From a virus (taxonomy: Duplodnaviria > Heunggongvirae > Uroviricota > Caudoviricetes), in IMG/VR virus record IMGVR_UViG_3300032731_000668, positions 1 through 64,000 of that record: a stretch of 64,000 nt of DNA; one strand, given 5' to 3'. The notes under the pieces were generated by a model. It was not told the DNA's origin and made no database searches. It saw nothing but the letters and a program-made list of their open reading frames with translations. The position numbers and the translations under genes were made by a program. Positions 28,657-48,754 of this stretch are shown in pieces (position 1 is the stretch's first letter; every line of letters starts with the position of its first letter).

Positions 28657-28845
28657 ATGACTTATGTATATCAATGTAAAAAATGCAAAAAAGAATTTGA
28701 ACTTGTTGCTGGTTTTTTAACAATCTTATCATTAGAAAAACAATGTCCTCATTGTGGATCTAAAAAAGTGGCAAGAAAATTTGTTCCTATTGATTTTATT
28801 TTAAAGGGAAATGATTTTTATAGAAACAACAAAGAAGACAAGTGA
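28657..28845 (+). CDS. FmdB-type zinc-ribbon protein (62 aa)
   Basis: YQCKKCKKEF...CPHCGS pattern. Confidence 0.5.
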   Translation: MTYVYQCKKCKKEFELVAGFLTILSLEKQCPHCGSKKVARKFVPIDFILKGNDFYRNNKEDK

Positions 28846-30149
28846 ACATAGATCAAAAAATTATAAATTTTATTAAAGAGATAGAAAAAGATTTACGCAT
28901 TCCTGCATGTGTTCATAATAACTTTGACAATTTTGTACCCTATGAGACCCCTGTTTACTATTCTGGGCCATATTGGAATGATTTAGAAATTTTGGTGGCA
29001 ATTAAAACATTGATTTTGGGCGATTGGATTAGCGCAGGAAAGAATGTTCAAGAATTCGAAAAACAATTTGCAAAAGTTATTGATGAAAAATATGGAATAA
29101 TGGTAAACAGTGGTTCATCTGCAAACCTAGTAATGATTACAGCTTTAAAAAAATATTTTAATTGGAATGATGGTGATGAGATAATAGTGTCAGCAGTGGG
29201 GTTCCCGACTACAACCTCTGTTATTGTCCAAAACAATTTGACACCCATATTTATTGACATAGAAATGCAAACTCTAAATTTTGATTTGAATTTAATTAAA
29301 GAAAAAATTACCAAAAAAACAAGAGCAATATTCCTGTCCCCCGTTTTAGGCAATTCTCCCGATATCGATGTAATAAAAGAAATATGTATGAAGTATAACC
29401 TACAACTAATTTTAGATGATTGCGATTCTCTGGGAAGTAAATGGGATGGAAAATTTTTAAATAAATACTGTGTTGCTTCTTCTCATTCCTTTTATGCAGC
29501 CCATACAATTTCCACAGGAGAAGGTGGAATGATTGTTACTAGCAATGCGAAAATTGCTAAAATTGCCAGAAGTTTAGTGAACTGGGGTCGTGATTGCCAT
29601 TGTTATGGAAGTGAAGGATTAATTCCTGATGGGGCTTGCGGACATAGATTTTCAAATTGGCTCAGAAATTATAACGGGATTGTAGATCATAGGTATGTTT
29701 TTTCTAATATGGGATATAATTTCAAGCCATTGGATTTGCAGGGTGGTATCGGAAACGTCCAATTGACTAAACTAGAAGAAATATATCAAAAAAGAAATAT
29801 AAGCAAACAAAAAATCACCGAAATATTTAGTCGAATAGAGGGTGTAGATAACCCGATACAATTAAATAAGGCTAATACTATATGGTTCGGCACCCCTTTT
29901 ATCTGTCAAAATAAAAAATTAAAACAAAATCTTGTGTCATTTTTAGAAAGTAACAAGATTCAGACCAGAAATTATTTCGCGGGAAATATATTACTTCATG
30001 AAGGATATGAAACTTTAGGTAATTTCAATGATTATCCTAACGCAAATTTAGTGTTGGACTTAGTATTTTTTGTCGGGGCTTCGCCTCATTATAATGATAA
30101 AATATTTGACTATTTTAAATCTGTTTTGAAGGAATTTAAAAATGAATAA
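28842..30149 (+). CDS. DegT/DnrJ/EryC1/StrS-family sugar aminotransferase (435 aa)
   Basis: DGDEIIVSAVGFPTT...IFIDIE and SFYAAHTISTGEGGMIVT (PLP-lysine region) motifs. Confidence 0.85.
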   Translation: MNIDQKIINFIKEIEKDLRIPACVHNNFDNFVPYETPVYYSGPYWNDLEILVAIKTLILGDWISAGKNVQEFEKQFAKVIDEKYGIMVNSGSSANLVMITALKKYFNWNDGDEIIVSAVGFPTTTSVIVQNNLTPIFIDIEMQTLNFDLNLIKEKITKKTRAIFLSPVLGNSPDIDVIKEICMKYNLQLILDDCDSLGSKWDGKFLNKYCVASSHSFYAAHTISTGEGGMIVTSNAKIAKIARSLVNWGRDCHCYGSEGLIPDGACGHRFSNWLRNYNGIVDHRYVFSNMGYNFKPLDLQGGIGNVQLTKLEEIYQKRNISKQKITEIFSRIEGVDNPIQLNKANTIWFGTPFICQNKKLKQNLVSFLESNKIQTRNYFAGNILLHEGYETLGNFNDYPNANLVLDLVFFVGASPHYNDKIFDYFKSVLKEFKNE

Positions 30150-30840
30150 TGGCATTATTGTTCTTGGATATGGATTACTCGGAAAAGAAATAACAAAACA
30201 AACCGATTGGAACTATATAAGTCGCAAGGAACACGGTATCGATTTTAATAAAACTGATTGGTATCATCACATTCAACGTTATGATACAATTATAAATTGT
30301 ATTGCAAATACTAACACATATTCACACGAAAGAGAAGACCATTGGCCGACCAATTATATAAGCGTAATGAATTTAGTAGACTGGTGTAATGAAAATAATA
30401 AAAAAGCTATACAAATTTCTACAGACTATATTTACAGTGGGTCTAATCGTAATGCCTCTGAGGAAGACATTCCTCTACATAATAAAACTTGGTATACATA
30501 TACAAAACTACTTAGCGACGCCTATGTACAAGCAAGGGCAAAAAATTATTTGTTGATTCGAACATCTTTTAAGCCAACACCTTTTCCATACCCCGAAGCA
30601 ATTGTTACTCAGACTGGTAATTTTGATTATGTCGATAAAATATCAAAATTGATTATTGAACTTATTAATAAAAATGCTTTCGGTGTTTTTAATGTGGGAA
30701 CACGGAGGAAAACTATATATGATCTAGCAACTAAAACTAATCCAAATATTATAGGTGCATTTCGAATATTAAATAAAGAAATGCCAAGAGATGTAACAAT
30801 GAATGTTTCAAAAATGGAGAATTTTTTAAATGAAAGTTAG
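30142..30840 (+). CDS. RmlD-like dTDP-4-dehydrorhamnose reductase family protein, short form (232 aa)
   Basis: ISTDYIYSG (RmlD STDYVF motif), YTYTKLLSD (YxxxK), LLIRTSF. Confidence 0.7.
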   Translation: MNNGIIVLGYGLLGKEITKQTDWNYISRKEHGIDFNKTDWYHHIQRYDTIINCIANTNTYSHEREDHWPTNYISVMNLVDWCNENNKKAIQISTDYIYSGSNRNASEEDIPLHNKTWYTYTKLLSDAYVQARAKNYLLIRTSFKPTPFPYPEAIVTQTGNFDYVDKISKLIIELINKNAFGVFNVGTRRKTIYDLATKTNPNIIGAFRILNKEMPRDVTMNVSKMENFLNES

Positions 30841-31570
30841 CATAGCAATTCCAGTTTATGAAATGGGTGGAAGAGGTACAGAATTTTTAAAATACTGTCT
30901 TCGCTCTATTTTATTGCAAACGCATCCTGTGTATGAGATAGTCATCTCAGATCATTCAAAAAATGATGACATTCTTGATCTTTGTAGTCCATGGCCACCA
31001 AACGTAAAATATGTTCGAAATAAAGAAAATTACGGTGTTTTTGCGTCCAACATGAATAATTGTTTTAGTTATTGTACCGGCGATATTATTAAAATTATGC
31101 ATCAGGACGACTTCTTTTATAGAATGGATTCTTTATCGAAAATTGTAAACAATTTTGATTTAGATAAAGGTTGGTTACTAACTACATATTATCATTCTAG
31201 AAATGGGAAAGATCTTTTTAAATTACATACCCCAAGTATTAAGGAATGTCCTTTGTTTATTAATAAAATTGGTGCACCTACCTGCCTAACAATTAAGAAT
31301 GAAGATATTCTTTATTTTGATGAAAATTTAAAGTGGTATGTAGACAGTGATTACTACGTAAGGTTGTTGACAAAATATGGACTCCCTGTGATTTTAGAAA
31401 AGCCAACAGTGGTACAGCGATTATGGGAAGGACAGGTTACTAATACAATAATACATAAGGATGTGATTACAGAAGAAATATTGTATTTATATAAAAAGCA
31501 TGACGTAAAACTAGAAGACCTGACTGAAATAATAGGAAGACTTGGGTATTGTGAGGCATATGAAGATTAG
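30830..31570 (+). CDS. family 2 glycosyltransferase (246 aa)
   Basis: VSIAIPVYEMGGRG...ISDHSKNDD GT-A N-terminal signature; paralog of the next gene. Confidence 0.75.
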   Translation: MKVSIAIPVYEMGGRGTEFLKYCLRSILLQTHPVYEIVISDHSKNDDILDLCSPWPPNVKYVRNKENYGVFASNMNNCFSYCTGDIIKIMHQDDFFYRMDSLSKIVNNFDLDKGWLLTTYYHSRNGKDLFKLHTPSIKECPLFINKIGAPTCLTIKNEDILYFDENLKWYVDSDYYVRLLTKYGLPVILEKPTVVQRLWEGQVTNTIIHKDVITEEILYLYKKHDVKLEDLTEIIGRLGYCEAYED

Positions 31571-32258
31571 TATTGCGATTCCTACTTATGAAATGAGTGA
31601 TCGTGGAGTCGAATGTTTAGACTACAATTTTAAAAAAATTCACCAACAAACGTTCAAAGACTTCAACGTGATCATCTCTGATCATTCGAAAGATGATAAA
31701 ATTTTTCATTTATGTAATATGTGGGGCAAAAAATTGAATATCAAATATATCAAAAATGAAAAAGATAGAGGTTCGCTATCAAGTAACTTAAACAGTTGTA
31801 TAAAAAATTGTAGCGGAGAAATAATTAAGTTCATAATGCAGGATGATTATTTTTACCATAAAAATTCATTAGAAAAAATTGTAAATAGGTTTGGTATAGG
31901 CAAAAGATGGCTGGTGTCTTCGTATTTTCATACAAATGACAGAATAAAACTTTTTCGTTTGCATATACCTGAAATTAGTAAAGACATGCTTCTTATTAAT
32001 CGTATCGGAACCCCTACATGTCTTACTATAAAAAATAATATTGATATTAAATTTGACTTGAAATTAAACTGGTATGTAGATTCAGATTATTATACACAAT
32101 TATATAAAACATATGGTAAGCCAGTTATTTTAAGAGATCCAACTGCGGTACAACTTCTTTGGGAAGGCCAAACAACGAACACAATTATCAATGAGAAAAT
32201 TATTAAAAATGAAGAAATATATCTTATGAAAAAATATGGGGCATATAGAAATGGATAA
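31560..32258 (+). CDS. family 2 glycosyltransferase, tandem paralog (232 aa)
   Basis: ISIAIPTYEMSDRG...ISDHSKDDK; about 45% identical to 30830-31570. Confidence 0.75.
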   Translation: MKISIAIPTYEMSDRGVECLDYNFKKIHQQTFKDFNVIISDHSKDDKIFHLCNMWGKKLNIKYIKNEKDRGSLSSNLNSCIKNCSGEIIKFIMQDDYFYHKNSLEKIVNRFGIGKRWLVSSYFHTNDRIKLFRLHIPEISKDMLLINRIGTPTCLTIKNNIDIKFDLKLNWYVDSDYYTQLYKTYGKPVILRDPTAVQLLWEGQTTNTIINEKIIKNEEIYLMKKYGAYRNG

Positions 32259-32910
32259 AATTCAAATTCCTGAATTAACCCTTATCGCTGTATCATCTAT
32301 AAAAATAGATGAAACTATTTTGGCTTTACAGAAGAGTTATAAAGATATTTTATTTGGATCTATAAAACTAATTACACATGAACGCCCAGAAATTTTACCT
32401 AAAGAAATTAGTTTTGAAGAATGTCCTAAATTAGATGATATAAATAAATATAATCATTATGTTTTTATAGAATTAGGTAAACACGTAAAAACAAGTCATT
32501 GTTTATTAATCCAACATGATTCTTGGGTATTAAGCCCCAAGTTATGGGACGATGATTGGTTGCAATATGATTATTGTGGTAGTCCGTGGGAATGGAAAAC
32601 TAATTCATACCAAACAGATTATGGAGAACATGTCAGAGTAGGAAATGGCGGATTTTCTCTGAGATCTAAAAAGCTTTTAGATATACCTAAAAAACATAAT
32701 ATGTATCTAAAATCTGAGAAGGGGTGGAAAAACGAAGATGGACAAATTTGCGTTTATTGGCGAAAAGAATTATTAGATTATGGAATCAAATATGCACCCG
32801 TTGAAATAGCATCAAAATTTTCTTATGAAAATCCAGTTCCTGAGAATAACTTTGGGAAGATGAAAACTTTTGGATTTCATAAGAATTTAAATACAGGGAA
32901 TAAGAGATAG
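32236..32910 (+). CDS. hypothetical protein in the glycan locus (224 aa)
   Basis: ORF overlapping the previous stop; no confident motif. Confidence 0.55.
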   Translation: MGHIEMDKIQIPELTLIAVSSIKIDETILALQKSYKDILFGSIKLITHERPEILPKEISFEECPKLDDINKYNHYVFIELGKHVKTSHCLLIQHDSWVLSPKLWDDDWLQYDYCGSPWEWKTNSYQTDYGEHVRVGNGGFSLRSKKLLDIPKKHNMYLKSEKGWKNEDGQICVYWRKELLDYGIKYAPVEIASKFSYENPVPENNFGKMKTFGFHKNLNTGNKR

Positions 32911-32916: not shown

Positions 32917-33903
32917 ATGATTATTTCTAAAACAGTTTTTGTTCAAGTGGCAGGACAACGTTCTTATTATATTAATAAAGGATACAATCTGACGCCATAC
33001 ATGTACAAAAATAGAAAGGGGAAAATGGTAATACCCCGCGGAACAATTATTGAAGTAAGGGTAGACGACCTTCCGCCGCGAAGTTCAAGAAAAGTTTTAG
33101 CCCAATGCGATAATCCAAAATGTAAAAAAGAACGTTGGGTAGAATACGAAAAGTATACCTCTCTATGCCATAGATGCGCTCTACAAACAGAATCTTATAA
33201 AACTAATAATGGAAATGCAAATAGAGGTAAAAAAAGAACTGCTGGCCAAAAAGAAAGAAAGAGAAAACCAAACTATCTGGTTAGAGGCAAAAATAACATT
33301 AATTGGAATAAAAATATATCTGAAAAAGACAGGCTAAAAACAAACGAAAAAAGTAGGAATAGCGTAGAATATAGAGCGTGGAGATTGTCTGTTTTTAGAA
33401 AAAATTGTTATCAATGCCAAAATTGTGGGTATACCGGTAGAAAAATAAATGCCCATCATATAGAAAGTTATTTTACAAATAAAGACTTAAGGTTTGATGC
33501 TGACAACGGAATAGTATTGTGTACAAATTGCCACAAATTGTTTCACAGCACATATGGAAAAACAGGAAATCATAAGTACCAACTCGATAAATTTTTAAAA
33601 AATAATAAAAACAAAAAAGAATTTGTTAAGTTAAAATTTGATATTCATAAAGATACTCGCCAAGGAAGAAAAAATGTAAACAACAATGATTCCAGCATAT
33701 ATGTTGGTGTATCAAAAAATAAAAACAGAAAAAAATGGGAGGCCGGAATATACCATGATAAAATAAAATATTATTTAGGAATGTTTGAATATGAAGTTGA
33801 GGCGGCAATGGCCTATAATGAAGCGGCGTCAGAAATATGGGGATGGAAAGCAATCTTAAATAAAATAACAGAAGACGATATTATTAAATTATGGGAAAAC
33901 TAA
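32917..33903 (+). CDS. HNH homing endonuclease with C-terminal AP2 DNA-binding domain (328 aa)
   Basis: CQNCGY...HHIESY...NGIVLCTNCHKLFH HNH motif; YVGVSKNKNRKKWEAGIYHDKIKYYLGMFEYEVEAAMAYNEAA AP2-like. Confidence 0.85.
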   Translation: MIISKTVFVQVAGQRSYYINKGYNLTPYMYKNRKGKMVIPRGTIIEVRVDDLPPRSSRKVLAQCDNPKCKKERWVEYEKYTSLCHRCALQTESYKTNNGNANRGKKRTAGQKERKRKPNYLVRGKNNINWNKNISEKDRLKTNEKSRNSVEYRAWRLSVFRKNCYQCQNCGYTGRKINAHHIESYFTNKDLRFDADNGIVLCTNCHKLFHSTYGKTGNHKYQLDKFLKNNKNKKEFVKLKFDIHKDTRQGRKNVNNNDSSIYVGVSKNKNRKKWEAGIYHDKIKYYLGMFEYEVEAAMAYNEAASEIWGWKAILNKITEDDIIKLWEN

Positions 33904-35978: not shown

Positions 35979-36568
35979 ATAAAAAAGAAGTATTAGAACA
36001 TGCATTGTCGTTTAAGTATGGCGGGATGTTGGAAGTTGAATTGGGTTATGTCTATGACATATGCGCCAACAAAAACGTTTTAGAGTTGGGAAGCATGGTA
36101 GGCATGAGTAGCTATGTTATTGCTTCTGTCGCAAAAAGTCTTTCATGTGTTGATGTATGGTCTGATACATGGGAACATCTAGCACACGATCCAATACAAC
36201 AAAAGATTTACGAGCAATTTACAGGTGTTATTTTATCTATGCATGAAAGTTTTAAAAGAAACTGCAAAACTTTTATTGATTCTAAAAAAATTAGAATGTA
36301 CAAGGGAAATACAAGAGAGATGGTCGATAAATTCTTAGATGAAAGCTTTGACGTTATTTTAATAGATGCCGACCATTCTTATGAAGGTGTATTACGTGAT
36401 TTTAATCTTTATCAAAATAAAATAAAAGATAATGGATATATTGTTTTTCATGATTATGGTGATTCTATGTGGACAGGAATTGCCCAATTGGCAAATGAAA
36501 TGGCTTCTCAAAATAAGATAAAAATAGTGGGAAGAGTTGAAAGAATAGGAGTGTTTAAAAAAATATGA
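35975..36568 (+). CDS. class I SAM-dependent O-methyltransferase (197 aa)
   Basis: VLELGSMVGMSS (motif I) ... ILIDADHSYEGV ... IVFHDY. Confidence 0.75.
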   Translation: MNKKEVLEHALSFKYGGMLEVELGYVYDICANKNVLELGSMVGMSSYVIASVAKSLSCVDVWSDTWEHLAHDPIQQKIYEQFTGVILSMHESFKRNCKTFIDSKKIRMYKGNTREMVDKFLDESFDVILIDADHSYEGVLRDFNLYQNKIKDNGYIVFHDYGDSMWTGIAQLANEMASQNKIKIVGRVERIGVFKKI

Positions 36569-42737: not shown

Positions 42738-43718
42738 GTGTTATTACCAGATTATATTAGAAAAGTTTTCGTTACAGGAGGAGCGGGATTTATTGGAAGC
42801 CATGTTGTAGATATGTTGCTAGAAGGAGGGTATCAAGTTACTGCATTTGATAATCTATCCACCGGTAAAAAATGCTGGATTGAGCAACATCTTGATAACG
42901 ATAATTTTCAATTTATACAAGCTGAATTACTAAGTTTGGATGACGTAAAAAATTCAATGCAGGGAAGCGATTTGGTTTGGCACTTAGCCGCCAATACAAA
43001 TATCCCAATAGGTTTTACAAAGACTGACATTGATCTAAAAAGCAATGTAATTGGCACCTATAACGTATTAGAATCTATGCGCTTAAATAATATTCAGCCT
43101 ATACTATTCTCATCAACTGGAGCGATATATGGCGACTTATGCAAAAAGAATTCCGTGACGGAAAATGTTGGACCAATTTTGCCAGTATCTTTATATGGAG
43201 GTAGCAAATTAGGATGTGAAGGGTTTATTGCCGCATATTGTAGTCTATTTAATCTAAGGGCATGGATGTTTAGATTTGGGAATGTTGTTGGTGGTCGTAT
43301 GAAGCGCGGGGCGATTTATGATTTTATTAAGAAGTTAAATACAAACTCCGCAGAACTAGAAATATTGGGAGACGGTAAACAAGAAAAGAATTATTTTCTT
43401 GTAGAAGAATGTATTGATGGAATGATCTATGCGTTAAAAAACGCTAAACTTACTGATGAAAATCCTTGTGATATTTTTAATTTAGGAGCTGATTCGACCA
43501 CAAGAGTCACTACAATAGCCCAACTAGTTATTGAAGGAATGAAGTTAAAAAATGTGGGTACCTATTTTACGGGCGGTGAAAAGGGATGGGAGGGTGATCA
43601 ACCCCAAGTCCATATACTTTCTAATAAAATGCATGGTTTAGGCTGGCAGACAAAACATACTTCAAATGAGGCCGTAAGAATAGCCATAAAAAGGTTGTTA
43701 AAAGAATATGAAAAATAA
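42738..43718 (+). CDS. NAD-dependent sugar epimerase/dehydratase (GalE/SDR family) (326 aa, GTG start)
   Basis: VTGGAGFIGSHV Rossmann motif and YGGSKLGCE (YxxxK). Confidence 0.85.
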   Translation: MLLPDYIRKVFVTGGAGFIGSHVVDMLLEGGYQVTAFDNLSTGKKCWIEQHLDNDNFQFIQAELLSLDDVKNSMQGSDLVWHLAANTNIPIGFTKTDIDLKSNVIGTYNVLESMRLNNIQPILFSSTGAIYGDLCKKNSVTENVGPILPVSLYGGSKLGCEGFIAAYCSLFNLRAWMFRFGNVVGGRMKRGAIYDFIKKLNTNSAELEILGDGKQEKNYFLVEECIDGMIYALKNAKLTDENPCDIFNLGADSTTRVTTIAQLVIEGMKLKNVGTYFTGGEKGWEGDQPQVHILSNKMHGLGWQTKHTSNEAVRIAIKRLLKEYEK

Positions 43719-44544
43719 AACAATAGCGGTAATATTTAGCAAAAATAGAGCAATGCAATTAGATTGTTGCCTAAAAACTTTTTATAGGGAATGCCTAGAT
43801 GCAGATAAGATCAATGTATTTATCTTATACACTACAACAAACAAAAATCATGAAAGAGCATATGACATTCTTGAACAAGAATATCCTGACGTAAGTTTCA
43901 TTAAAGAAAGTAATTTCAAAGAAGATTTATTAGAAATTACATCAGGGAATGTTCACCTCTTATTCATTGTTGACGACACCATCTTTATCGATGAATTTTA
44001 TATTGCCGATATGACCGACTCTCTTGCATATCGCCACAACAAATATACTTTGGGTGTGAGTCTGCGTCTTGGTACAAACACCACATACTGTTATCCCCTA
44101 AGCAAAACTCAACAAATTCCTAAACTAATAAATGGGTGGTATGGACTTCAAAAATTTGACTGGACGAAAGCAGAGTACGATTTTAATTATCCACTAGAAT
44201 TGTCATCTAGCCTTTATAGATATAATGACTTAAAATTTATTTTGGAACAAACCTATTATAATAATCCAAATGAATTAGAATATTTATTAAGTATTAATTC
44301 GGTGGTTGTAAAAAAGGATTATTTATTATGTTATGAAAATTCTATGGCATTTTCTAATCCGCTTAACAAAGTTCAAAATACGAATAACAATAAATTCGCA
44401 ATTGAATCAATACATACCCCAGAATTTCTTTTATCAATGTTTCTAGATGAATTCAGAATAGAAACAACTATGTTTGAAGAATTTATGCCTTCGGGATGCC
44501 ACGAAGAAATAGAATTCTTATTTATAAAGGAGAAAAATGACTAA
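43708..44544 (+). CDS. hypothetical protein, possible GT-A fold (278 aa)
   Basis: ORF overlapping the previous stop; weak glycosyltransferase-like N-terminus. Confidence 0.5.
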   Translation: MKNKTIAVIFSKNRAMQLDCCLKTFYRECLDADKINVFILYTTTNKNHERAYDILEQEYPDVSFIKESNFKEDLLEITSGNVHLLFIVDDTIFIDEFYIADMTDSLAYRHNKYTLGVSLRLGTNTTYCYPLSKTQQIPKLINGWYGLQKFDWTKAEYDFNYPLELSSSLYRYNDLKFILEQTYYNNPNELEYLLSINSVVVKKDYLLCYENSMAFSNPLNKVQNTNNNKFAIESIHTPEFLLSMFLDEFRIETTMFEEFMPSGCHEEIEFLFIKEKND

Positions 44545-44983
44545 AAACTCTATATCAATCATTCTTGCTGTTCATAATCAAGAAAAACTTATTGGAGATG
44601 TTATAAAGGGAATTTTTAATAACATGTCAAACAATGTAATAGATATGTTTGTAATTCTTGAGGACTGTACAGATAATTCTGAAAATGAAATTTTAGTTGC
44701 TTTAGCAAAGCATAAAAAAGACGGTTTCTTTGATGTAAAGTTAGTGTATTCAGACTATAACAACAAATTAATAGCAAACAATATAGGATGTCAATCGTCA
44801 GAGAATGAATATTCTTTAATAGTTCCAGATAATATGATTATCGATGAGATGGATTTTGACAAAAGATTGTTGGAATCATTTGAATCAAGTAAGACCTTTA
44901 TAGAGGCTAGGGAGGGAAATATTTTGGTATTGTTGAAAAATAGTGAATTACCAGAATTGAATTTTGACGGAGTAGAACTATGA
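44537..44983 (+). CDS. short GT2-like protein (148 aa)
   Basis: ISIILAVHNQEKLIGDVIKGI GT2-like start. Confidence 0.5.
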   Translation: MTKNSISIILAVHNQEKLIGDVIKGIFNNMSNNVIDMFVILEDCTDNSENEILVALAKHKKDGFFDVKLVYSDYNNKLIANNIGCQSSENEYSLIVPDNMIIDEMDFDKRLLESFESSKTFIEAREGNILVLLKNSELPELNFDGVEL

Positions 44984-45759
44984 GTTTAAAAGAATTATCA
45001 AAAAAAGACATAGATAAATTTTGGGACAGTGTTGTAAAAAATGAAAGTAATAATTGTTGGGACTGGCGTGGAATTAAAGACAGGAACAACAGGGGAATAA
45101 TGTTTGCGGTGAATAAAAAAAATATTGTTTATAGTGCCGCACATATTTCATTGTTTTTGAATCGCAACATAGATGTTAGTGGTACACCGATAAGAAGATT
45201 GTGTGAAAATATGTGGTGCTGTAAGCCAGATCATTTGGTTATAAAGAAAAAAGATTTGAGTATACCTTTAGATATTGTTTTGACAAAAAAACGATTAAGA
45301 AATTTTTGGGCACGAGTAAAAATAAAAGATAAAGATGAATGTTGGGAATGGCAAGGATGCAAGGATAAAAAGGGTTATGGACAAATTAATTTAAATTATA
45401 AAACTTATAGGACGCACAGATTATCCTATATGATAAAACACAATTTAAGTTATATTTCTGGCGGAATGTGTGTTTTACATAAATGCGATAATCCCGTCTG
45501 TGTTAATCCCGACCACTTATGGCTTGGCACCAATTTTGATAATGTTCAAGATCGCCATGCAAAAGGAAGAAGTAGTGCTTCTAAAGGTGAATCTAGCCAT
45601 TTTCATAAACTCAATGAGAAAACGGTAAGAAAAATTAGGCAAGATTATAAAACCGGTAATTTTACAACAAGAAAGCTTGCTGTCAAATATAATACTTCGA
45701 AATCAAATATAGGCCACATTGTTCACAATAAAACATGGAGGGACATATCAATTGAGTAA
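44980..45759 (+). CDS. HNH homing endonuclease (tandem HNH_3-like repeats) (259 aa)
   Basis: Two CWxW...C.NxxCxNPDHL modules (CKPDHLVI, CVNPDHLWLGTNFDNVQDR). Confidence 0.8.
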   Translation: MSLKELSKKDIDKFWDSVVKNESNNCWDWRGIKDRNNRGIMFAVNKKNIVYSAAHISLFLNRNIDVSGTPIRRLCENMWCCKPDHLVIKKKDLSIPLDIVLTKKRLRNFWARVKIKDKDECWEWQGCKDKKGYGQINLNYKTYRTHRLSYMIKHNLSYISGGMCVLHKCDNPVCVNPDHLWLGTNFDNVQDRHAKGRSSASKGESSHFHKLNEKTVRKIRQDYKTGNFTTRKLAVKYNTSKSNIGHIVHNKTWRDISIE

Positions 45760-46585
45760 AAGAAAACGTACAAAGTATATAAATCTTGCAGAACCATTGG
45801 TAAGTGTAATAGTTCCGATTTATAATAGATTTAATTTTTTAGTCTTAACATTACAGTCTTTAAAAAATCAATCATATGATAATATTCAAGTTGTATGTGT
45901 GAATGATGGTGGCAAAAGTGCTGAGAAATATATTAAGGATTTAAATGATCCAAGATTTGAATACTATGAACACGAGGTCAACGGTGGATTGCCGAAGGCC
46001 CGTAATACAGCCTTAAAACACGCAAAGGGTTCTTATATTTCATTATTAGATTCAGATGATATTTATATGAAATATGCAATAGAATTTAGGATGTATATGA
46101 TGAAGAAGTTAAATGCCGAAATAGTTTTTACAAGATCTTTGCAAAACATTATGGATAAAGTAAAATTGCCGAATGGACAGGAAGTGTATAAAACTATTCA
46201 CTCCCAATTGTACTGGAATTCTGGGTTTTCTCGTGATCTTCTCTTAATCCAAAATGTTTCGCCGTGTTGCAATGTTTGTTTTTCTAGAAAATCCTGGGAA
46301 GATTCGGGTTATTGGTTCGATGAAACTATGACTAGTTCAGAGGATCATGATTTTTGGTGTGCTCTGAGTAGAAAGCATGACTTTGAGCCATTAGAATTGC
46401 TTGATACAGAATGTTCGCTTCGCCGAGACGGCAGTAATATGACGGGGACAATTAACTTTGTTCCAAACTGGATTAAAATTTTTAAAAAATGGAGACATAC
46501 CGCAGAAGATTTAGACTATGTTACGGATGCCCAAAATCGTATTTTGCAATCTGTCAACATTGACCCAAAAGAATATGGACTTTAA
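45752..46585 (+). CDS. family 2 glycosyltransferase (277 aa, TTG start)
   Basis: VSVIVPIYNRFNFLVLTLQSLKNQSY...VNDGG; start moved to the TTG with a GGAGGG RBS. Confidence 0.75.
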   Translation: MSKRKRTKYINLAEPLVSVIVPIYNRFNFLVLTLQSLKNQSYDNIQVVCVNDGGKSAEKYIKDLNDPRFEYYEHEVNGGLPKARNTALKHAKGSYISLLDSDDIYMKYAIEFRMYMMKKLNAEIVFTRSLQNIMDKVKLPNGQEVYKTIHSQLYWNSGFSRDLLLIQNVSPCCNVCFSRKSWEDSGYWFDETMTSSEDHDFWCALSRKHDFEPLELLDTECSLRRDGSNMTGTINFVPNWIKIFKKWRHTAEDLDYVTDAQNRILQSVNIDPKEYGL

Positions 46586-46601
46586 GGACTTATAGAGAAA
46601 T

Positions 46602-47531
46602 ATGACACCTATGAATGACTTAAAGGGAATGAAATATGGACTATTGACGGTCTTGCATAAAGTTAGTCGTCCAAGTTGGGCAAAAAATAAAAGTATTTAT
46701 TGGTTTTGTAGATGTGATTGTGGAAAAGAATTAATTATTTCTGCGTCTCGACTGAGGAGTAAGGGAAAACGGTCGTGTGGATGTGCACGATACAATGATT
46801 TAAGTGGAAAGATATTTGGGATTTTAACAGTTCTTATGGAGTATGGAAAAGATAAGAACGGGAAAAGGCTATGGATATGCAAGTGTGAGTGCGGAAATGA
46901 AAAAGAAGTAAAAGGAAGTTCCTTAAAATCCGGGAATACAAAATCTTGCGGGTGTTTAAGTAAAAATATGTTCCTGTCTAGCGCCGAGGATTTAGTTGAA
47001 CGAAGATTTGAGAGATTGGTTGTTCTAGAGATTGTTAAGGCTAATAAAACAGGATCTCATTGGTTATGTCAATGCGATTGCGGGAATAAAAAGGTTATTG
47101 CCGCAAAAAATTTAAAGCAGGGGTATACAAAGTCTTGCGGGTGTTTAAAAAAAGAAAGAGTAAGCGCTGCCCACAGATTAGAGGTATCGGAGGCGGCATT
47201 TAATGCAGTATTTTATGAATATAAAAGCAGCGCAAAAGCAAGGGGTTTTGAATTTCTTTTAAGTAAGAATAAATTTCGTATACTGACAGAACAAAATTGT
47301 TATTATTGTGGCTGTTCGCCAAGCAATGTCAGAAAAGCACAAAACAATAATGGAAACTATATTTATAGCGGAATAGACAGGGTTGATAATTTCAAAGGAT
47401 ACACAATAAAAAATACTGTGCCTTGTTGTAAAGATTGCAATTGGGCAAAAAAAGACAAGTCTTTGGGAGAATTTAAAAATTGGGTTAAATTAATTTATAA
47501 AAATTTTATTAAAAACAAGGAGCAAGAATGA
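46602..47531 (+). CDS. HNH-type endonuclease with repeated SCGC zinc-finger-like modules (309 aa)
   Basis: Three KRSCGC/KSCGC repeats; C-terminal YYCGC...IDRVDN...CCKDCNWAK HNH-like. Confidence 0.6.
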   Translation: MTPMNDLKGMKYGLLTVLHKVSRPSWAKNKSIYWFCRCDCGKELIISASRLRSKGKRSCGCARYNDLSGKIFGILTVLMEYGKDKNGKRLWICKCECGNEKEVKGSSLKSGNTKSCGCLSKNMFLSSAEDLVERRFERLVVLEIVKANKTGSHWLCQCDCGNKKVIAAKNLKQGYTKSCGCLKKERVSAAHRLEVSEAAFNAVFYEYKSSAKARGFEFLLSKNKFRILTEQNCYYCGCSPSNVRKAQNNNGNYIYSGIDRVDNFKGYTIKNTVPCCKDCNWAKKDKSLGEFKNWVKLIYKNFIKNKEQE

Positions 47532-48754
47532 ATCTCGTTTACGTGTACGCGGACCAGCCACAAACTGAAAATTGTTCAAAATGGAATTGTTATTATCCAG
47601 CGGAAGCGGTCAATAGAACTAAAGATCATCGTGCTAGTATTATGCACGTTAATCAATTCTCACAAAATACTTCAGAAGTAAATAAAATGTGTGCAAAGGC
47701 CGATATTCTTATCATTGAAAGAAATTTATTTGGCGACGTGCTTACTTTTATGACTTATTGGCGCATTAGAAATAAAACTGTATTGGCAATTTTTGATGAT
47801 GGTTATGATTGTATGACGGAAGACAATCCTGCATATGCATTTTGGCATCGAAATGAAATAAAAGTTATAGCGAACAATATTGCCAACAGTACTCTTAACC
47901 AAATGAATTCTCAAAAACAAAACAATGTTTTATGGAATAATATCCCTATGGAAGATAGAGACAAAATGATTGCGTTAGCTACATCAATGTTTGAAGGGAA
48001 GATGCCCATAGGACCAGAAACTAAAGTTTCAGATATTCCCTTTATGTCACAATTCAAATGGGGTTTAAAAATAGCAAAAGGAATACAAGTTCCGTCTAAG
48101 CGATTAGCTAATGACTGGAAAAAATATAACAAAACTTATTTTGTACATAATTATCTTGATATCAAACAATATATGAATGTTGAACCATTAATAAAACACG
48201 ATGATATATTTATTGGTTGGTGCGGAAGCCTGACTCACCTGCCCAGTTTTGTTGAAAGTGGCGCTATAGAAGCAATTAAAAACATTGTCGCTAAATACAA
48301 TAATGTAAAACTATTAATAGGTGGAGACAAAAAAGTATTTGATGCAATAGACATTCCAGAGGATAAGAAAATATTTCAAAAATATGTTCCTCATGAGCAA
48401 TGGACTAGCCTGTTAAAATCTATCGATATAGGATTGGCGCCATTGGCAACTGTTTATGATCGCAGACGCAGTTGGATTAAGGCACTTGAATATATGGCTC
48501 TTAAGACACCATGGATTGCATCAGACTTTCCTCCATATAAAGAATTACAAGGTTACGGAAAAATAGTTCAAAATTCAGTTGCTTCATGGGAAAATGCATT
48601 AGCGGACATGATTGACAATTTGCAAGACCATAGAGATAAAGCAGCAGCCGAACCATATGACTTTGCATTAACTCAAACCACCGACAAGAATATCTTGAAA
48701 ACTATTGCCTTATACCAAAAAATTATTGATGCGCCTTATCGCTGGCCAGCTTGA
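47528..48754 (+). CDS. GT-B fold glycosyltransferase (GT4-like) (408 aa)
   Basis: C-terminal EQWTSLLKSIDIGLAPL...IKALEYMALKTPWIASD resembles the GT4 EX7E region. Confidence 0.65.
   Translation: MNLVYVYADQPQTENCSKWNCYYPAEAVNRTKDHRASIMHVNQFSQNTSEVNKMCAKADILIIERNLFGDVLTFMTYWRIRNKTVLAIFDDGYDCMTEDNPAYAFWHRNEIKVIANNIANSTLNQMNSQKQNNVLWNNIPMEDRDKMIALATSMFEGKMPIGPETKVSDIPFMSQFKWGLKIAKGIQVPSKRLANDWKKYNKTYFVHNYLDIKQYMNVEPLIKHDDIFIGWCGSLTHLPSFVESGAIEAIKNIVAKYNNVKLLIGGDKKVFDAIDIPEDKKIFQKYVPHEQWTSLLKSIDIGLAPLATVYDRRRSWIKALEYMALKTPWIASDFPPYKELQGYGKIVQNSVASWENALADMIDNLQDHRDKAAAEPYDFALTQTTDKNILKTIALYQKIIDAPYRWPA

What the first reader, a model, noticed from the sequence alone, without database searches (positions are those of the whole stretch)
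28842..48754. Phage-borne glycan assembly locus of about 20 kb (nucleotide-sugar tailoring, five methyltransferases, seven to eight glycosyltransferases)
One co-directional block encodes a DegT-type sugar aminotransferase, an RmlD-like reductase, a GalE-like SDR epimerase/dehydratase and a radical SAM/SPASM enzyme. It also encodes five SAM-dependent methyltransferases (FkbM, TylF/CmcI-like and class I types). The glycosyltransferases are GT2 (x3-4), GT17 (two copies), GT25, GT11-like and GT4-like. The gene content predicts a branched oligosaccharide containing amino, 6-deoxy and heavily O-methylated sugars. No nucleotidyltransferase (RmlA/GalU) is present, so the precursor must come from the host. 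In a phage this could glycosylate virion proteins, the host surface (receptor masking or superinfection exclusion) or possibly DNA. The GT17/GT25/GT11 combination with multiple O-methyltransferases is unusual for phages and more typical of giant-virus capsid glycosylation.
Basis: partly seen in the sequence, partly recalled or inferred. Interest (0 to 1): 0.8.

Follow-up and report, generated by a model that had tools for sequence, protein, structure and literature searches.

The report
Phage sugar-chain assembly gene block
A large uncultured aquatic phage carries a 20-kb operon of soluble enzymes that should build a methylated, dideoxy-sugar-containing oligosaccharide. The block is real, but it belongs to a kind of phage "LPS-like" gene cluster known since 2005, and what the glycan is attached to is still unknown.

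Summary
Window 28448-48754 is one co-directional unit of 26 ORFs bracketed by two sigma70-like promoter matches, and at least 19 of the ORFs have carbohydrate-related assignments.

- The "DegT aminotransferase" is an E1/RfbH-type PMP and Fe-S 3-dehydrase. It has His in place of the PLP lysine and four conserved Cys, so it predicts a 3,6-dideoxyhexose, not an amino sugar.
- There are four methyltransferases, not five.
- Three HNH homing endonucleases sit between the genes.
- The unknowns add glycosyltransferase candidates: 43708 has a GT-A fold, and the two DUF3431 copies are GT-A-like.

No protein in the block has a membrane segment. There is no priming transferase, flippase, polymerase or transporter.

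The block is not unusual for phages. The core RfbH-RmlD-GT2-DUF5672-DUF3431-GT11-GT17 recurs, collinear in several cases, in a 642-kb huge phage, many IMG/VR contigs and cultured Synechococcus myoviruses. Three other large uncultured phage contigs carry a 10-13-gene version. The GT11-DUF5672-GT17 trio also occurs in Lachnospiraceae chromosomes.

The acceptor is unresolved. I slightly favour phage virion proteins (about 0.4) over host envelope glycan (about 0.35). DNA glycosylation is unlikely. Verdict: a new member of a known kind, of moderate interest.

The parts
28398..28426 (+). Sigma70-like promoter match (TTGACA-17-TACAAT, TG-extended), 22 nt upstream of the first small ORF of the unit
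   Evidence: Window-wide there are 14 matches of at least 11/12 on the + strand and 1 on the - strand. Nine of the 14 are intergenic, although only 8% of the window is intergenic.
28448..28639 (+). Small ORF (63 aa), function unknown
   Evidence: Sequence read; ORF call.
28657..28845 (+). Small CxxC...CxxC zinc-ribbon-type ORF (62 aa). Its stop overlaps the start of the next gene.
   Evidence: phrog_15827, E 1e-4. A Zn_ribbon_8 ORF also flanks the homologous block in L058.
28842..30149 (+). E1/RfbH/DdhC-type PMP-dependent, Fe-S NDP-4-keto-6-deoxyhexose 3-dehydrase (not an aminotransferase)
   Evidence: Pfam DegT E 3e-69. NCBIfam RfbH E 7e-99, 331 bits against a cutoff of 423. PDB 3BCX E1 E 8e-68, ColD E 5e-42. 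His221 and Cys194/252/254/266 are invariant in 11 phage homologues.
30142..30840 (+). Short RmlD-like SDR, a putative NDP-4-ketosugar 4-reductase. It is always adjacent to the 3-dehydrase.
   Evidence: Pfam RmlD_sub_bind E 1e-15. TIGR01214 E 6e-15. PDB 2GGS E 4e-8. The pair is conserved at 49-52% identity in L053, L009, L012 and L015.
30830..31570 (+). GT2 glycosyltransferase (copy a)
   Evidence: Pfam E 2e-18. 52% identical to copy b.
31542..32258 (+). GT2 glycosyltransferase (copy b, tandem paralogue)
   Evidence: Pfam E 7e-12.
32236..32910 (+). DUF5672 protein, a presumed glycosyltransferase-like partner of GT17 and GT11
   Evidence: Pfam E 2e-20. It lies adjacent to GT17 in 73 of 80 bacterial loci and to GT11-like in 68 of 80. 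There is no PDB sequence match.
32917..33903 (+). HNH plus AP2-domain homing endonuclease, absent at this position in related phages
   Evidence: Pfam HNH E 1e-5, AP2 E 2e-6. L058 has DUF5672 directly followed by DUF3431.
33891..34625 (+). Unassigned 244-aa protein
   Evidence: No Pfam, NCBIfam or PHROG hit. Homologues at 25-29% identity lie next to GT17 in L007/L008 and L009. The PDB profile search found nothing meaningful. hhalign against the 43708 family gave 3% probability.
34629..35978 (+). DUF3431 (GT-A-like) domain fused to a Methyltransf_24 domain
   Evidence: Pfam DUF3431 E 9e-10, MT24 E 2e-7. The N-terminal domain is 41% identical to 36565.
35975..36568 (+). Methyltransf_24 / TylF-CmcI-like SAM methyltransferase
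   Evidence: Pfam E 1e-17.
36565..37212 (+). DUF3431 protein with a divergent nucleotide-diphospho-sugar-transferase (GT-A-like) fold
37216..38142 (+). Radical SAM enzyme with a C-terminal four-Cys auxiliary motif. The reaction is unknown. It is always paired with the next methyltransferase.
   Evidence: Pfam E 2e-12. C42/46/49 and C223/241/282/285 are invariant. The rSAM-MT23 pair also occurs in L058, L059, L060, L061 and cyanophage SynMITS9220M01.
38126..38773 (+). Class I SAM methyltransferase (Methyltransf_23-like)
   Evidence: Pfam E 1e-5, below the cutoff. Homologues at 58-62% identity in L058 and L059. The homologue in L060 hits PF13489 and PF13649.
38739..39473 (+). FkbM-family methyltransferase
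   Evidence: Pfam E 4e-12. 42% identical homologue in L059.
39470..40315 (+). Divergent GT11-family (fucosyltransferase-like) glycosyltransferase
   Evidence: Own Pfam E 2e-3. 16 of 21 homologues hit PF01531, best 7.5e-31. Invariant R154, with G155 and G156 at least 90% conserved.
40308..41189 (+). GT17-family glycosyltransferase (copy a). It contains an internal 12/12 sigma70-like match at 40674-40702.
   Evidence: Pfam E 9e-23.
41190..41831 (+). GT25-family glycosyltransferase
   Evidence: Pfam E 3e-12. Homologues in L058 and L059.
41847..42713 (+). GT17-family glycosyltransferase (copy b, 36% identical to copy a)
   Evidence: Pfam E 5e-21.
42738..43718 (+). GalE-like extended SDR (nucleotide-sugar 4-epimerase type, not a 4,6-dehydratase)
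   Evidence: Pfam Epimerase E 2e-41. PDB 3EHE GalE-1 E 5e-78. From established knowledge of 4,6-dehydratases: the motif reads SSTGAIYG and lacks the Asp-Glu pair.
43708..44544 (+). GT-A-fold glycosyltransferase of a family with no Pfam model
   Evidence: AF2 pLDDT 92.6. Foldseek PDB hits: GnT-I 1FOA E 2.5e-9, plus SpsA, TarP and POMGnT1. D89 and D90 are invariant. Some family members are fused to a methyltransferase.
44537..44983 (+). 148-aa GT2-like fragment, possibly a remnant
   Evidence: Pfam 20.7 bits, below the cutoff. Weak hit to phrog_22973. No homologue in any fetched locus.
44980..45759 (+). His-Me finger / HNH_3 homing endonuclease
   Evidence: Pfam E 3e-10 and 1e-6.
45719..46585 (+). 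GT2 glycosyltransferase (copy c)
   Evidence: Pfam E 1.5e-26. 51-57% identical homologues in L058 and L059, where the gene lies directly next to the GT4 gene.
46602..47531 (+). Cys-repeat HNH endonuclease inserted between GT2c and GT4
   Evidence: phrog_374 HNH endonuclease E 8e-55.
47528..48754 (+). GT4-like (GT-B, Glycos_transf_1) glycosyltransferase, the last gene of the unit
   Evidence: Pfam E 4e-8. 46% identical homologues in L058 and L059.
48751..48779 (+). Next sigma70-like promoter match (TTGACA-17-TAGAAT, TG). It marks the downstream boundary.

Best explanation
The block is a single, probably host-RNA-polymerase-transcribed operon that encodes a fully soluble, cytoplasmic glycan assembly line.

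Step 1, partly shown. An NDP-4-keto-6-deoxyhexose is converted to an NDP-3,6-dideoxyhexose by the Fe-S/PMP 3-dehydrase (28842) and the adjacent RmlD-like 4-reductase (30142). The substrate comes from the host or from phage genes outside the window. Cytidylyltransferase and 4,6-dehydratase genes accompany the homologue in cyanophages, so the substrate is probably CDP-linked. A GalE-like epimerase (42738) supplies a second sugar epimer.

Step 2, inferred from families and folds. Ten to thirteen glycosyltransferase-type proteins add sugars one at a time to build a branched hetero-oligosaccharide. These are GT2 three times, DUF5672, DUF3431 twice, GT11-like, GT17 twice, GT25, the GT-A protein 43708 and GT4. 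The fucosyltransferase-like GT11 member is the natural candidate to transfer the deoxy or dideoxy sugar.

Step 3, inferred. Four SAM methyltransferases and a radical SAM enzyme with its partner methyltransferase tailor the sugars. One methyltransferase is fused to a DUF3431 domain.

Step 4, inferred, and the least certain. The system encodes no lipid-carrier priming enzyme, flippase, polymerase, ligase or transporter. The same core is kept by phages of very different lineages, and related cassettes occur in Gram-positive bacteria. I therefore think the acceptor is most likely a protein made by the phage itself, such as capsid, tail or fibre proteins. That would give a glycosylated virion, as in mycobacteriophages and giant viruses.

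My confidence in steps 1-3 is about 0.85. My confidence in the whole statement, including the virion acceptor, is about 0.4.
For: Enzyme identities.

Folds of the unknowns.

No hydrophobic 19-residue window typical of a membrane helix in any of the 25 proteins.

Transcription unit bracketed by promoter-like sites of the class seen at the start of the rightward gene array.

Conservation:
- The core RfbH-RmlD-GT2-DUF5672-DUF3431-GT11-GT17 recurs in LR756502 (642 kb) and in IMG/VR loci such as L009, L012 and L015, collinear in LR756502 and L015.
- Of these seven genes, five recur in a different order in cultured cyanomyoviruses S-B05 and S-H68, which have no RmlD-like or DUF3431 match.
- 10-13 of the genes recur in three other large uncultured phage contigs: L058 (119 kb), L059 (136 kb) and L060 (305 kb).
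- Outside the block, almost none of the window's genes match the other viral loci; the one exception is the DNA methyltransferase at 61108-61836. The module therefore moves between phage lineages.
- The 3-dehydrase gene carries an intein in L059 and L060, and the window copy of the block holds three free-standing HNH genes. From general knowledge, this is typical of conserved phage genes.

Bacterial counterpart: the GT11-like/DUF5672/GT17 trio occurs in Lachnospiraceae, which have no LPS. In Butyrivibrio JL13D10 the four-GT cassette sits among housekeeping genes with no export genes nearby.

Precedents:
- Mycobacteriophage virion glycosylation, Freeman 2023, as cited in PMC12801897.
- Giant-virus glycans, PMC9614988.
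Against: - No structural gene lies within the 64-kb window or within 10 kb of the module in the other viral loci examined. There the neighbours are further sugar-tailoring enzymes.
- In mycobacteriophages the glycosyltransferase genes sit next to the structural genes.
- The promoter class suggests early or middle rather than late expression.
- No recognisable protein-initiating glycosyltransferase was identified.
- Soluble phage glycosyltransferases can act on lipid-linked host polymers; TarP is among the fold matches.
- The window carries a tyrosine integrase, which would fit classical lysogenic surface conversion.
- No virion glycan has been reported for the cyanophages that carry the homologous core.
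- The 3-dehydrase scores below the NCBIfam RfbH equivalog cutoff, and no E3 reductase partner was found.
Confidence: 0.4

Rival explanations
1. Host envelope remodelling. The soluble phage enzymes work at the cytoplasmic face on a host lipid-linked intermediate, such as Und-PP-GlcNAc, an O-unit or a teichoic-acid-type polymer. The host's own flippase or ABC transporter and ligase then display the new, dideoxy- and O-methyl-capped glycan on the cell. This masks receptors and excludes competing phages during a long latent period, pseudolysogeny or lysogeny.
For: - This is the standing hypothesis for the homologous cyanophage and jumbo-phage clusters (PMC1079782, PMC7824862, PMC7029224, PMC12801897).
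- The promoter is of the early/middle sigma70-like class.
- The block sits among early, replication and DNA-modification genes rather than structural genes.
- The window holds a tyrosine integrase and a polysaccharide deacetylase at 15787-16569.
- From established knowledge, 3,6-dideoxyhexoses are classic O-antigen sugars and GT25 is an LPS/LOS family.
- There is a precedent for a soluble phage glycosyltransferase acting on a host polymer: TarP appears among the fold matches.
Against: - None of the more than 10 phage versions examined carries a priming phosphoglycosyl transferase, Wzx, Wzy, WaaL, Wzm/Wzt or any membrane protein.
- From established knowledge, all experimentally proven phage seroconversion systems (GtrABC, Oac, O-polymerases) use membrane proteins.
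- The same glycosyltransferase set is kept by phages of presumably very different hosts, and the trio occurs in Gram-positive Lachnospiraceae. A host-specific O-unit acceptor is therefore hard to reconcile.
- Infected cells have limited time and growth in which to renew their surface.
Confidence: 0.35
2. Another soluble or unconventional target. The glycan might be built on a small molecule, a lipid or a host cytoplasmic protein. Or the pathway might mainly drain host nucleotide sugars or the lipid carrier to shut down host wall synthesis.
For: - No acceptor-defining enzyme was identified.
- The bacterial four-GT cassette has no export or acceptor genes nearby.
- In other phages the module is accompanied by tailoring of a natural-product type: B12-radical SAM enzymes and an SDR plus C-methyltransferase fusion.
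Against: - There are no lipid, polyketide or peptide scaffold genes in or near the block.
- A 10-13-glycosyltransferase line is excessive for a metabolic sink.
- No precedent in phages is known to me.
Confidence: 0.1
3. DNA hypermodification. The glycosyltransferases attach a glycan to a modified base in phage DNA to evade restriction.
For: - The block lies among DNA methyltransferase, ligase, clamp and nucleotide-metabolism genes.
- Phage glycosyltransferases related to LPS enzymes do glycosylate 5hmC with mono- to trisaccharides (bioRxiv 10.1101/2023.12.21.572611).
Against: - No C5-cytosine methyltransferase, TET/5mYOX, dCMP hydroxymethylase or thymidylate-synthase-like enzyme was found among the window ORFs of at least 100 aa or next to the block in L058, L059 and L060.
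- Known DNA glycans have at most three sugars, whereas this block has 10-13 glycosyltransferase-type proteins plus dideoxy and methyl tailoring.
- The phage itself encodes a GmrSD_N-HNH protein. From established knowledge, that family attacks sugar-modified DNA.
- The bacterial homologues of the glycosyltransferase trio are chromosomal and not linked to DNA-modification genes.
Confidence: 0.04
4. Not phage. The block is a fragment of a bacterial O-antigen or capsule locus, or an assembly chimera.
For: - No capsid, portal or terminase gene is in the window.
- The window's own contig was not returned from IMG/VR.
- Several genes have close bacterial relatives.
Against: - The window holds 136 tightly packed + strand genes, mostly tiny ORFs with no database match, plus HNH and GIY-YIG endonucleases, phage-type families (phrog_947, 114, 7485, 374), a DnaN clamp and a ligase closest to huge phages.
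- GC content is uniform at about 30% across the block and its flanks.
- Sequences identical to window proteins, in the same gene order, were assembled independently in at least six samples, and on a contig of 168 kb.
- Three other large uncultured contigs carry the same block in the same kind of context.
Confidence: 0.03

Closest known systems
Cyanomyovirus "LPS / cell-wall" gene clusters (P-SSM2, S-SCSM1, S-SCSM2R). The closest are the roughly 17-kb clusters of Synechococcus phages S-B05, S-H68, S-B43, RN05-S and RB11-B.
   Same: - Phage-borne, co-directional cluster of nucleotide-sugar enzymes, O-methyltransferase and GT11, GT17, GT25 and GT2 genes.
- Six window proteins have homologues there: 3-dehydrase 52%, DUF5672 38%, GT2 31-35%, GT11-like 29%, GT17 26-28% and SDR 29% identity.
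- No export genes are present.
- The function is untested.
   Different: - The cyanophage clusters also carry a cytidylyltransferase, a 4,6-dehydratase and RmlC, which the window lacks.
- They sit beside tail-fibre and baseplate genes in T4-like genomes.
- They have no tblastn match to the DUF3431 proteins.
- They have no match of E 1e-10 or better to the radical SAM protein.
- Their annotation lists no HNH genes.
- The window phage is not T4-like in its clamp, which is DnaN-type.
Huge phage LR756502 (642 kb; an uncultured-phage record in the phage collection; to my knowledge from the 2020 huge-phage survey of Al-Shayeb et al.) and IMG/VR contigs such as L015, L009 and L012
   Same: - The core RfbH-RmlD-GT2-DUF5672-DUF3431-GT11-GT17(-SDR) is collinear with the window in LR756502 and L015.
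- L009 and L012 carry most of these genes in a different order.
- Identities to the window are 31-61%.
   Different: - The core there is compact, about 6.6 kb with single copies.
- The window version is expanded by duplications of GT2, DUF3431 and GT17.
- It also has extra glycosyltransferases (GT25, 43708, GT2c, GT4), the methyltransferase and radical SAM sub-cluster, and three homing endonucleases.
Salmonella / Yersinia 3,6-dideoxyhexose pathway (DdhA-D / RfbFGHI, AscA-F)
   Same: An E1-type 3-dehydrase with His in place of Lys and a Cys motif for a 2Fe-2S cluster, followed by a 4-reductase step.
   Different: - No nucleotidyltransferase, 4,6-dehydratase or E3 reductase is in the window.
- The last Cys spacing is X11 instead of X7.
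- The score is below the RfbH equivalog cutoff.
- The reductase is RmlD-like, not RfbJ/Prt-like.
- The pathway is not embedded in a Wzx/Wzy O-antigen locus.
Virion glycosylation systems of mycobacteriophages and of giant viruses (chlorovirus PBCV-1 A064R and others; Mimivirus fibril glycan clusters)
   Same: - Virus-encoded soluble glycosyltransferases and sugar methyltransferases that work without the host export or ER machinery.
- A glycosyltransferase-methyltransferase fusion (34629-35978). From my own knowledge, its architecture is analogous to A064R.
- Rare bacterial-type sugars (PMC9614988).
   Different: - No homology to those enzymes was demonstrated beyond shared folds.
- Mycobacteriophage glycosyltransferase genes are few and lie next to the structural genes.
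- No virion glycan data exist for this phage or its relatives.
Lachnospiraceae / Butyrivibrio chromosomal GT11-like/DUF5672/GT2/GT17 cassettes
   Same: - The same glycosyltransferase trio or quartet is present. GT17 is found with DUF5672 in 73 of 80 loci and GT11-like in 68 of 80, at 26-46% identity.
- There are likewise no export genes nearby.
   Different: - The context is a cellular chromosome.
- Only 1 of 80 loci has a 3-dehydrase.
- There is no methyltransferase and radical SAM sub-cluster.
- The function is also unknown.

Membership tests
E1 / RfbH / DdhC CDP-6-deoxy-L-threo-D-glycero-4-hexulose 3-dehydrase | DegT/aspartate-aminotransferase fold, closest to E1 rather than to transaminases | tested here: met
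   PDB 3BCX E 8e-68 over residues 50-432. The best true aminotransferase scores E 4e-32. NCBIfam RfbH is the top hit, E 7e-99.
E1 / RfbH / DdhC CDP-6-deoxy-L-threo-D-glycero-4-hexulose 3-dehydrase | Histidine replaces the Schiff-base lysine (PMP rather than PLP chemistry) | tested here: met
   SFYAAH221 aligns with SFYPAH220 of wild-type E1. The H220K mutant entry 3BB8 shows K at that position. The His is invariant in 11 phage homologues.
E1 / RfbH / DdhC CDP-6-deoxy-L-threo-D-glycero-4-hexulose 3-dehydrase | Cys motif C-X57-C-X1-C-X7-C for the 2Fe-2S cluster (motif recalled from the literature) | tested here: inconclusive
   C194-X57-C252-X1-C254-X11-C266. All four Cys are invariant in the phage homologues, but the last spacing is X11, not X7.
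E1 / RfbH / DdhC CDP-6-deoxy-L-threo-D-glycero-4-hexulose 3-dehydrase | Reaches the curated equivalog score | tested here: not met
   331.4 bits against the cutoff of 423. It is a divergent relative, so substrate and nucleotide specificity cannot be assumed.
E1 / RfbH / DdhC CDP-6-deoxy-L-threo-D-glycero-4-hexulose 3-dehydrase | Dedicated E3 (DdhD/AscD) reductase partner and upstream DdhA/DdhB | tested here: not met
   None was found among the window ORFs of at least 100 aa. Cyanophage versions do carry a cytidylyltransferase and a 4,6-dehydratase.
Phage-encoded polysaccharide ("LPS") gene clusters of cyanomyoviruses and jumbo phages | Located in a phage genome | tested here: met
   The flanks are phage-type. 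Identical proteins occur on a 168-kb contig.
Phage-encoded polysaccharide ("LPS") gene clusters of cyanomyoviruses and jumbo phages | Clustered nucleotide-sugar-modifying enzymes plus several glycosyltransferase families | tested here: met
   The literature description is in PMC7824862 and PMC1079782.
Phage-encoded polysaccharide ("LPS") gene clusters of cyanomyoviruses and jumbo phages | Sequence homology of component genes to a described cluster | tested here: met
   Six genes match the S-B05 and S-H68 clusters at 26-52% identity.
Bacterial O-antigen / capsule locus (Wzx/Wzy- or ABC-transporter-dependent) | Priming phosphoglycosyl transferase, flippase, polymerase or ABC transporter, chain-length regulator | tested here: not met
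   There are no such Pfam families and no membrane-helix-like segment in any of the 25 proteins.
Phage seroconversion modules (GtrABC, Oac, phage Wzy) | Integral-membrane GtrA/GtrB/Gtr-type or acyltransferase_3 proteins | tested here: not met
Mycobacteriophage-type virion glycosylation | Glycosyltransferase genes adjacent to the capsid and tail genes they modify | tested here: not met
   There are no structural genes in the 64-kb window, and none within 10 kb in L058-L060.
Mycobacteriophage-type virion glycosylation | Glycans detected on virion proteins | not testable with these tools
   This needs purified virions. The phage is uncultured.
Phage DNA sugar-hypermodification gene clusters | Enzyme that makes the reactive base (C5-methyltransferase plus TET/5mYOX, or dCMP/dUMP hydroxymethylase) linked to the glycosyltransferases | tested here: not met
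   It is absent from the window ORFs of at least 100 aa and from the flanks of the block in L058-L060.
GT11 (alpha-1,2-fucosyltransferase family) for ORF 39470 | Match to PF01531 above the gathering score | tested here: inconclusive
   The protein's own score is 17.9 bits against a cutoff of 23.9. Sixteen of 21 aligned homologues match, best E 7.5e-31. The invariant Arg followed by two nearly invariant Gly resembles the HxRRGDY motif, which I recall from memory.
SPASM/twitch radical SAM enzymes for ORF 37216 | CX3CX2C core plus a C-terminal Cys-rich auxiliary-cluster domain | tested here: inconclusive
   The core is present and invariant. Four C-terminal Cys are invariant. Pfam SPASM is not hit, and database matches cover only residues 30-140.

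The most novel reading that the evidence does not exclude
The conserved core is the 3-dehydrase, the reductase, GT2, DUF5672, DUF3431, GT11 and GT17. With its methylation and radical SAM add-ons, it could be a host-independent virion-glycosylation system. It is shared horizontally by many large aquatic phages, including T4-like cyanophages, 300-640-kb huge phages and this clade of at least 168 kb. That would make it the phage counterpart of giant-virus capsid glycosylation. The so-called cyanophage "LPS genes" would then be mis-assigned, and many environmental phage particles would carry a dideoxy- and O-methyl-sugar coat.
Probability: 0.33. Interest if true: 0.8.

Novelty: new member of a known kind. 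Interest (0 to 1): 0.5.

Why it matters
Large phage "LPS-like" clusters have been annotated for twenty years without any experimental function.

This block is one of the most elaborate examples: about 20 carbohydrate genes, 10-13 of them glycosyltransferase-type.

Comparison shows it is an expanded copy of a compact core that moves between unrelated phage lineages and has a cellular counterpart in Gram-positive bacteria. That undermines the "LPS" label. It also points to experiments on cultured carriers of the core (Synechococcus phages S-B05, S-H68 and S-B43) that could settle whether the glycan goes on virions or on the host surface.

It also corrects a common mis-annotation, in which DegT-family proteins with His at the lysine position are called aminotransferases. 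And it gives first fold-level assignments for DUF3431 and for a family with no Pfam model.

Tried and rejected
- Megablast of the whole block against 50,697 phage records found no match. Relatives are only detectable at the protein level.
- Profile searches of PDB sequences with alignments of DUF5672, the GT11-like family and ORF 33891 gave no hits or only chance hits.
- hhalign of the ORF 33891 family against the ORF 43708 family gave 3% probability. ORF 33891 stays unassigned.
- I tried to walk out of the window to find structural genes. A TTG-start methyltransferase was not on record. The downstream and upstream look-ups showed only small ORFs, YAcAr and GIY-YIG, and showed that window position 1 coincides with the start of a 45-kb JGI contig.
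- Large ORFs next to the module in other viral loci were checked for tail-fibre or capsid domains. They are further sugar-tailoring enzymes, ClpB or a helicase.
- I considered whether the 148-aa GT2 fragment and GT2c are halves of one gene split by the HNH gene. I rejected this because GT2c has a complete GT2 domain and full-length homologues.
- I considered whether the SDR 42738 is the missing 4,6-dehydratase. I rejected this because it is GalE-like and lacks the Asp-Glu pair.
- The literature holds nothing functional on DUF5672 or DUF3431.
- I considered calling the adenylosuccinate-synthetase-like gene PurZ. This is not justified, because it is far closer to archaeal PurA than to solved PurZ structures.

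Full report
**What is there**

The window has about 30% GC throughout. It is packed with 136 + strand genes that cover 92% of the sequence.

Between 28842 and 48754 lie 24 consecutive, mostly overlapping + strand ORFs. Pfam, NCBIfam and PHROG scans give the following order:

1. DegT-family protein
2. RmlD-like SDR
3. GT2
4. GT2
5. DUF5672
6. HNH+AP2 endonuclease
7. Unassigned 244-aa ORF
8. DUF3431 fused to Methyltransf_24
9. Methyltransf_24
10. DUF3431
11. Radical SAM
12. Methyltransf_23-like
13. FkbM
14. GT11-like
15. GT17
16. GT25
17. GT17
18. GalE-like SDR
19. Unassigned 278-aa ORF
20. 148-aa GT2-like fragment
21. His-Me/HNH endonuclease
22. GT2
23. HNH endonuclease (phrog_374, E 8e-55)
24. 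GT4-like

GT2a/GT2b, the two DUF3431 domains and GT17a/GT17b are paralogue pairs, at 52%, 41% and 36% identity.

- I find four methyltransferases rather than five.
- Pfam SPASM is not hit, although four C-terminal Cys are invariant in the radical SAM family.
- Three of the ORFs are homing endonucleases.

**Boundaries and transcription**

Matches of at least 11/12 to TTGACA-17-TAnnAT, usually with an extended -10 TG, occur 14 times on the + strand and once on the - strand. Nine of the 14 are intergenic, although only 8% of the window is intergenic.

- One match sits at 218-246, at the head of the rightward gene array.
- One sits at 28398-28426. It is 22 nt before two small ORFs, one of them a zinc ribbon, that run into the first enzyme gene.
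- One sits at 48751-48779, immediately after the GT4 stop.

I infer that the block is one operon (28448-48754) read by host-type sigma70 RNA polymerase, from the same promoter class as the presumptive early genes. This is inference from consensus matches, not a measurement.

**The key correction**

The DegT-family protein is not a transaminase.

- Its best NCBIfam hit is RfbH (E 7e-99).
- Its best solved relative is Yersinia E1, CDP-6-deoxy-L-threo-D-glycero-4-hexulose 3-dehydrase (3BCX, E 8e-68). Next comes ColD (E 5e-42), and true aminotransferases score E 1e-32 or weaker.
- In the alignment the PLP lysine is replaced by His221. The engineered H220K entry 3BB8 shows the difference at exactly that column.
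- Cys194, 252, 254 and 266 align with the E1 cysteines.
- All five residues are invariant in 11 phage homologues, giving C-X57-C-X1-C-X11-C.

With the always-adjacent RmlD-like reductase, this predicts conversion of an NDP-4-keto-6-deoxyhexose to an NDP-3,6-dideoxyhexose. It does not predict an amino sugar.

Caveats:
- The score is below the RfbH equivalog cutoff.
- The last Cys spacing differs from E1.
- No E3 reductase, 4,6-dehydratase or nucleotidyltransferase is encoded among the window ORFs of at least 100 aa.
- The second SDR is GalE-like (3EHE, E 5e-78) and lacks the dehydratase Asp-Glu pair.

In cyanophage S-H68 the homologous dehydrase is accompanied by a cytidylyltransferase and a 4,6-dehydratase. 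This suggests a CDP-linked pathway whose first steps this phage leaves to the host or encodes elsewhere.

**The unknowns**

- **ORF 43708.** It belongs to a family with no Pfam model. An AlphaFold model (pLDDT 92.6) matches GT-A glycosyltransferases: GnT-I at E 2.5e-9, plus SpsA, TarP and POMGnT1. It has an invariant Asp-Asp.
- **GT11-like ORF (39470).** On its own it is sub-threshold, but 16 of 21 homologues hit PF01531.
- **DUF5672.** It has no solved relative by sequence.
- **ORF 33891.** It stays unassigned.

None of the 25 proteins has a membrane-helix-like segment.

The block therefore encodes 10-13 glycosyltransferase-type proteins and nothing for priming on a lipid carrier, flipping, polymerising, ligating or exporting.

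**Relatives**

A scan of IMG/VR with GT17 returned 45 loci. tblastn of all window ORFs against them shows that, with one exception (the DNA methyltransferase at 61108-61836), only block genes are shared.

- A core RfbH-RmlD-GT2-DUF5672-DUF3431-GT11-GT17(-SDR) is present in the 642-kb huge phage LR756502 and in contigs L015, L009 and L012, at 31-61% identity. It is collinear with the window in LR756502 and L015.
- Five of these core genes, plus an SDR match, occur in a different order in cultured Synechococcus myoviruses S-B05, S-H68, S-B43, RN05-S and RB11-B. The 3-dehydrase is 52% identical there.
- Look-ups of radical SAM homologues revealed three large uncultured phage-type contigs with 10-13 of the same genes in nearly the same order: L058 (119 kb), L059 (136 kb) and L060 (305 kb).
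- Identical window proteins occur on a 168-kb contig and in at least six samples. One of these is the Lake A (High Arctic) co-assembly.
- In L059 and L060 the dehydrase gene carries an intein.
- The radical SAM-methyltransferase pair recurs in all of these, in L061, and distantly in cyanophage SynMITS9220M01.

The window copy is thus an expanded version of a mobile, conserved phage module. It is peppered with homing endonucleases.

**Cellular counterpart**

A scan of one genome per GTDB species with the DUF5672 profile found more than 512 relatives. In the 80 loci kept, GT17 accompanies DUF5672 in 73 and GT11-like in 68. Most of these loci are from Lachnospiraceae and Butyrivibrio.

In the complete Butyrivibrio JL13D10 chromosome, the four glycosyltransferase genes sit between genes matching SAM synthetase and asparagine synthase on one side and an aminotransferase and genes matching HrcA, Hsp70 (DnaK) and DnaJ on the other. 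No export genes are nearby.

The glycosyltransferase trio is therefore not LPS-specific.

**Literature**

- Large phage sugar clusters were reported in P-SSM2 in 2005: 24 "LPS genes" (PMC1079782).
- They were reviewed for jumbo phages, with at least eight glycosyltransferase families (PMC7824862).
- They are described in pelagimyophages (PMC7029224).
- They are described in S-SCSM2R, with 13 glycosyltransferases including GT11 and GT25 (PMC12801897).
- In every case the proposed role, host-surface modification, is a hypothesis.

The claim that this combination is unusual for phages is therefore not supported.

**Mechanism and target**

The enzyme identities are shown, as are the soluble nature of all components, the conservation and the mobility.

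The rest is inferred: stepwise assembly of a branched oligosaccharide that contains a 3,6-dideoxyhexose and O-methyl (possibly C-modified) sugars.

The acceptor cannot be read from the sequence. Arguments for a phage-encoded acceptor, that is virion glycosylation (about 0.4):
- Export and priming functions are absent in every phage version.
- The same glycosyltransferase set is retained across phages of presumably very different hosts, and in Gram-positive bacteria.
- Proven systems exist in mycobacteriophages and giant viruses.

Arguments for host-envelope remodelling (about 0.35):
- The promoter is of the early class.
- The block is located away from any structural gene.
- An integrase and a polysaccharide deacetylase are in the window.
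- The sugars are of the O-antigen type.
- TarP is a precedent for a soluble phage glycosyltransferase acting on a host polymer.

DNA glycosylation is unlikely (about 0.04):
- No base-activating enzyme is present.
- The number of glycosyltransferases far exceeds the mono- to trisaccharides known on DNA.
- The phage encodes a GmrSD-type nuclease domain.

A bacterial origin of the fragment is very unlikely.

**Verdict**

This is a real, well-delimited and unusually large phage glycan operon. It is a new, expanded member of the known class of phage "LPS-like" clusters.

Its interest lies in three things:
- the corrected chemistry, a dideoxy sugar rather than an amino sugar
- the recognition of a conserved mobile core shared with cultured cyanophages
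- the open and now testable question of what the glycan decorates

Noticed in passing
window 57310-58910: A phosphoribosyltransferase gene is followed by a short (355 aa) adenylosuccinate-synthetase-like gene. PHROGs labels the second gene with its PurZ family (phrog_1211, E 4e-47). However, it is much closer to archaeal PurA (5K7X, E 1.5e-67) than to solved PurZ structures (6FM1, E 4e-11). A homologue lies right next to the glycan block in L058. Whether this phage makes 2-aminoadenine DNA is open.
   Followed up: partly
window, whole length (for example 218-246, 10148-10175, 21297-21325, 28398-28426, 48751-48779, 54119-54147): Sigma70-like TTGACA-17-TAnnAT sites, usually with TG-extended -10 elements, occur 14 times on the + strand and once on the - strand. 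Nine of the 14 are intergenic. They probably represent the phage's host-polymerase promoter set.
   Followed up: partly
L059:3274-6045 and L060:2872-5337: The 3-dehydrase gene of two other phage contigs that carry the block is interrupted by an intein with a LAGLIDADG domain (923 and 821 aa, against 435 aa here). This is an unusual host gene for an intein.
   Followed up: no
window 22723-25091: An EcoRI-type adenine methyltransferase (E 4e-119) is immediately followed by a GmrSD_N (DUF262) plus HNH protein. This is a phage-borne methylase and modification-dependent-nuclease-like pair.
   Followed up: no
window 26100-28365: An SPFH/Band-7 protein and a protein with an anthrax-lethal-factor-type (ATLF) domain lie directly upstream of the glycan operon.
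   Followed up: no
window 15381-16569: A phage ABA-sandwich domain ORF is followed by a polysaccharide deacetylase (PF01522, E 4e-13). The pair lies 12 kb upstream of the block and might act on the same or another glycan.
   Followed up: no
window 6860-7870 and 10595-11359: There is a complete DnaN-type beta clamp, plus a second, weak and partial clamp-like ORF. The phage uses a bacterial-type rather than a T4-type clamp.
   Followed up: no
window 53392-55091: A homing endonuclease (phrog_314) is followed by a tyrosine integrase that has its own promoter-like site. This may indicate a temperate lifestyle or a mobile element.
   Followed up: no
L077:8952-12844 (Butyrivibrio sp. JL13D10 chromosome) and 67 other bacterial loci: A compact GT11-like/DUF5672/GT2/GT17 cassette occurs in Lachnospiraceae. 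In Butyrivibrio JL13D10 it lies between housekeeping genes with no export genes. Its acceptor is unknown.
   Followed up: partly
L007:10902-16638, L009:14943-16901, L053:25892-28495: In other phages the same core is accompanied by B12-binding radical SAM enzymes, an SDR plus sugar C-methyltransferase fusion, and a nucleotidyltransferase-kinase fusion. The tailoring set around the core varies between phages.
   Followed up: no
window 48785-49357 and 28657-28845; L058:3134-3679 and 16086-16277: A 190-aa ORF and a zinc-ribbon ORF flank the block in both the window and L058, but on opposite sides. The block and its flanks look circularly permuted between the two phages.
   Followed up: no
window 1-300: Window position 1 coincides with position 1 of a 45-kb JGI contig. 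A - strand gene end at 2-115 is followed by a strand switch and the first promoter-like site. The window therefore starts at the head of a long rightward, early-type gene array.
   Followed up: no
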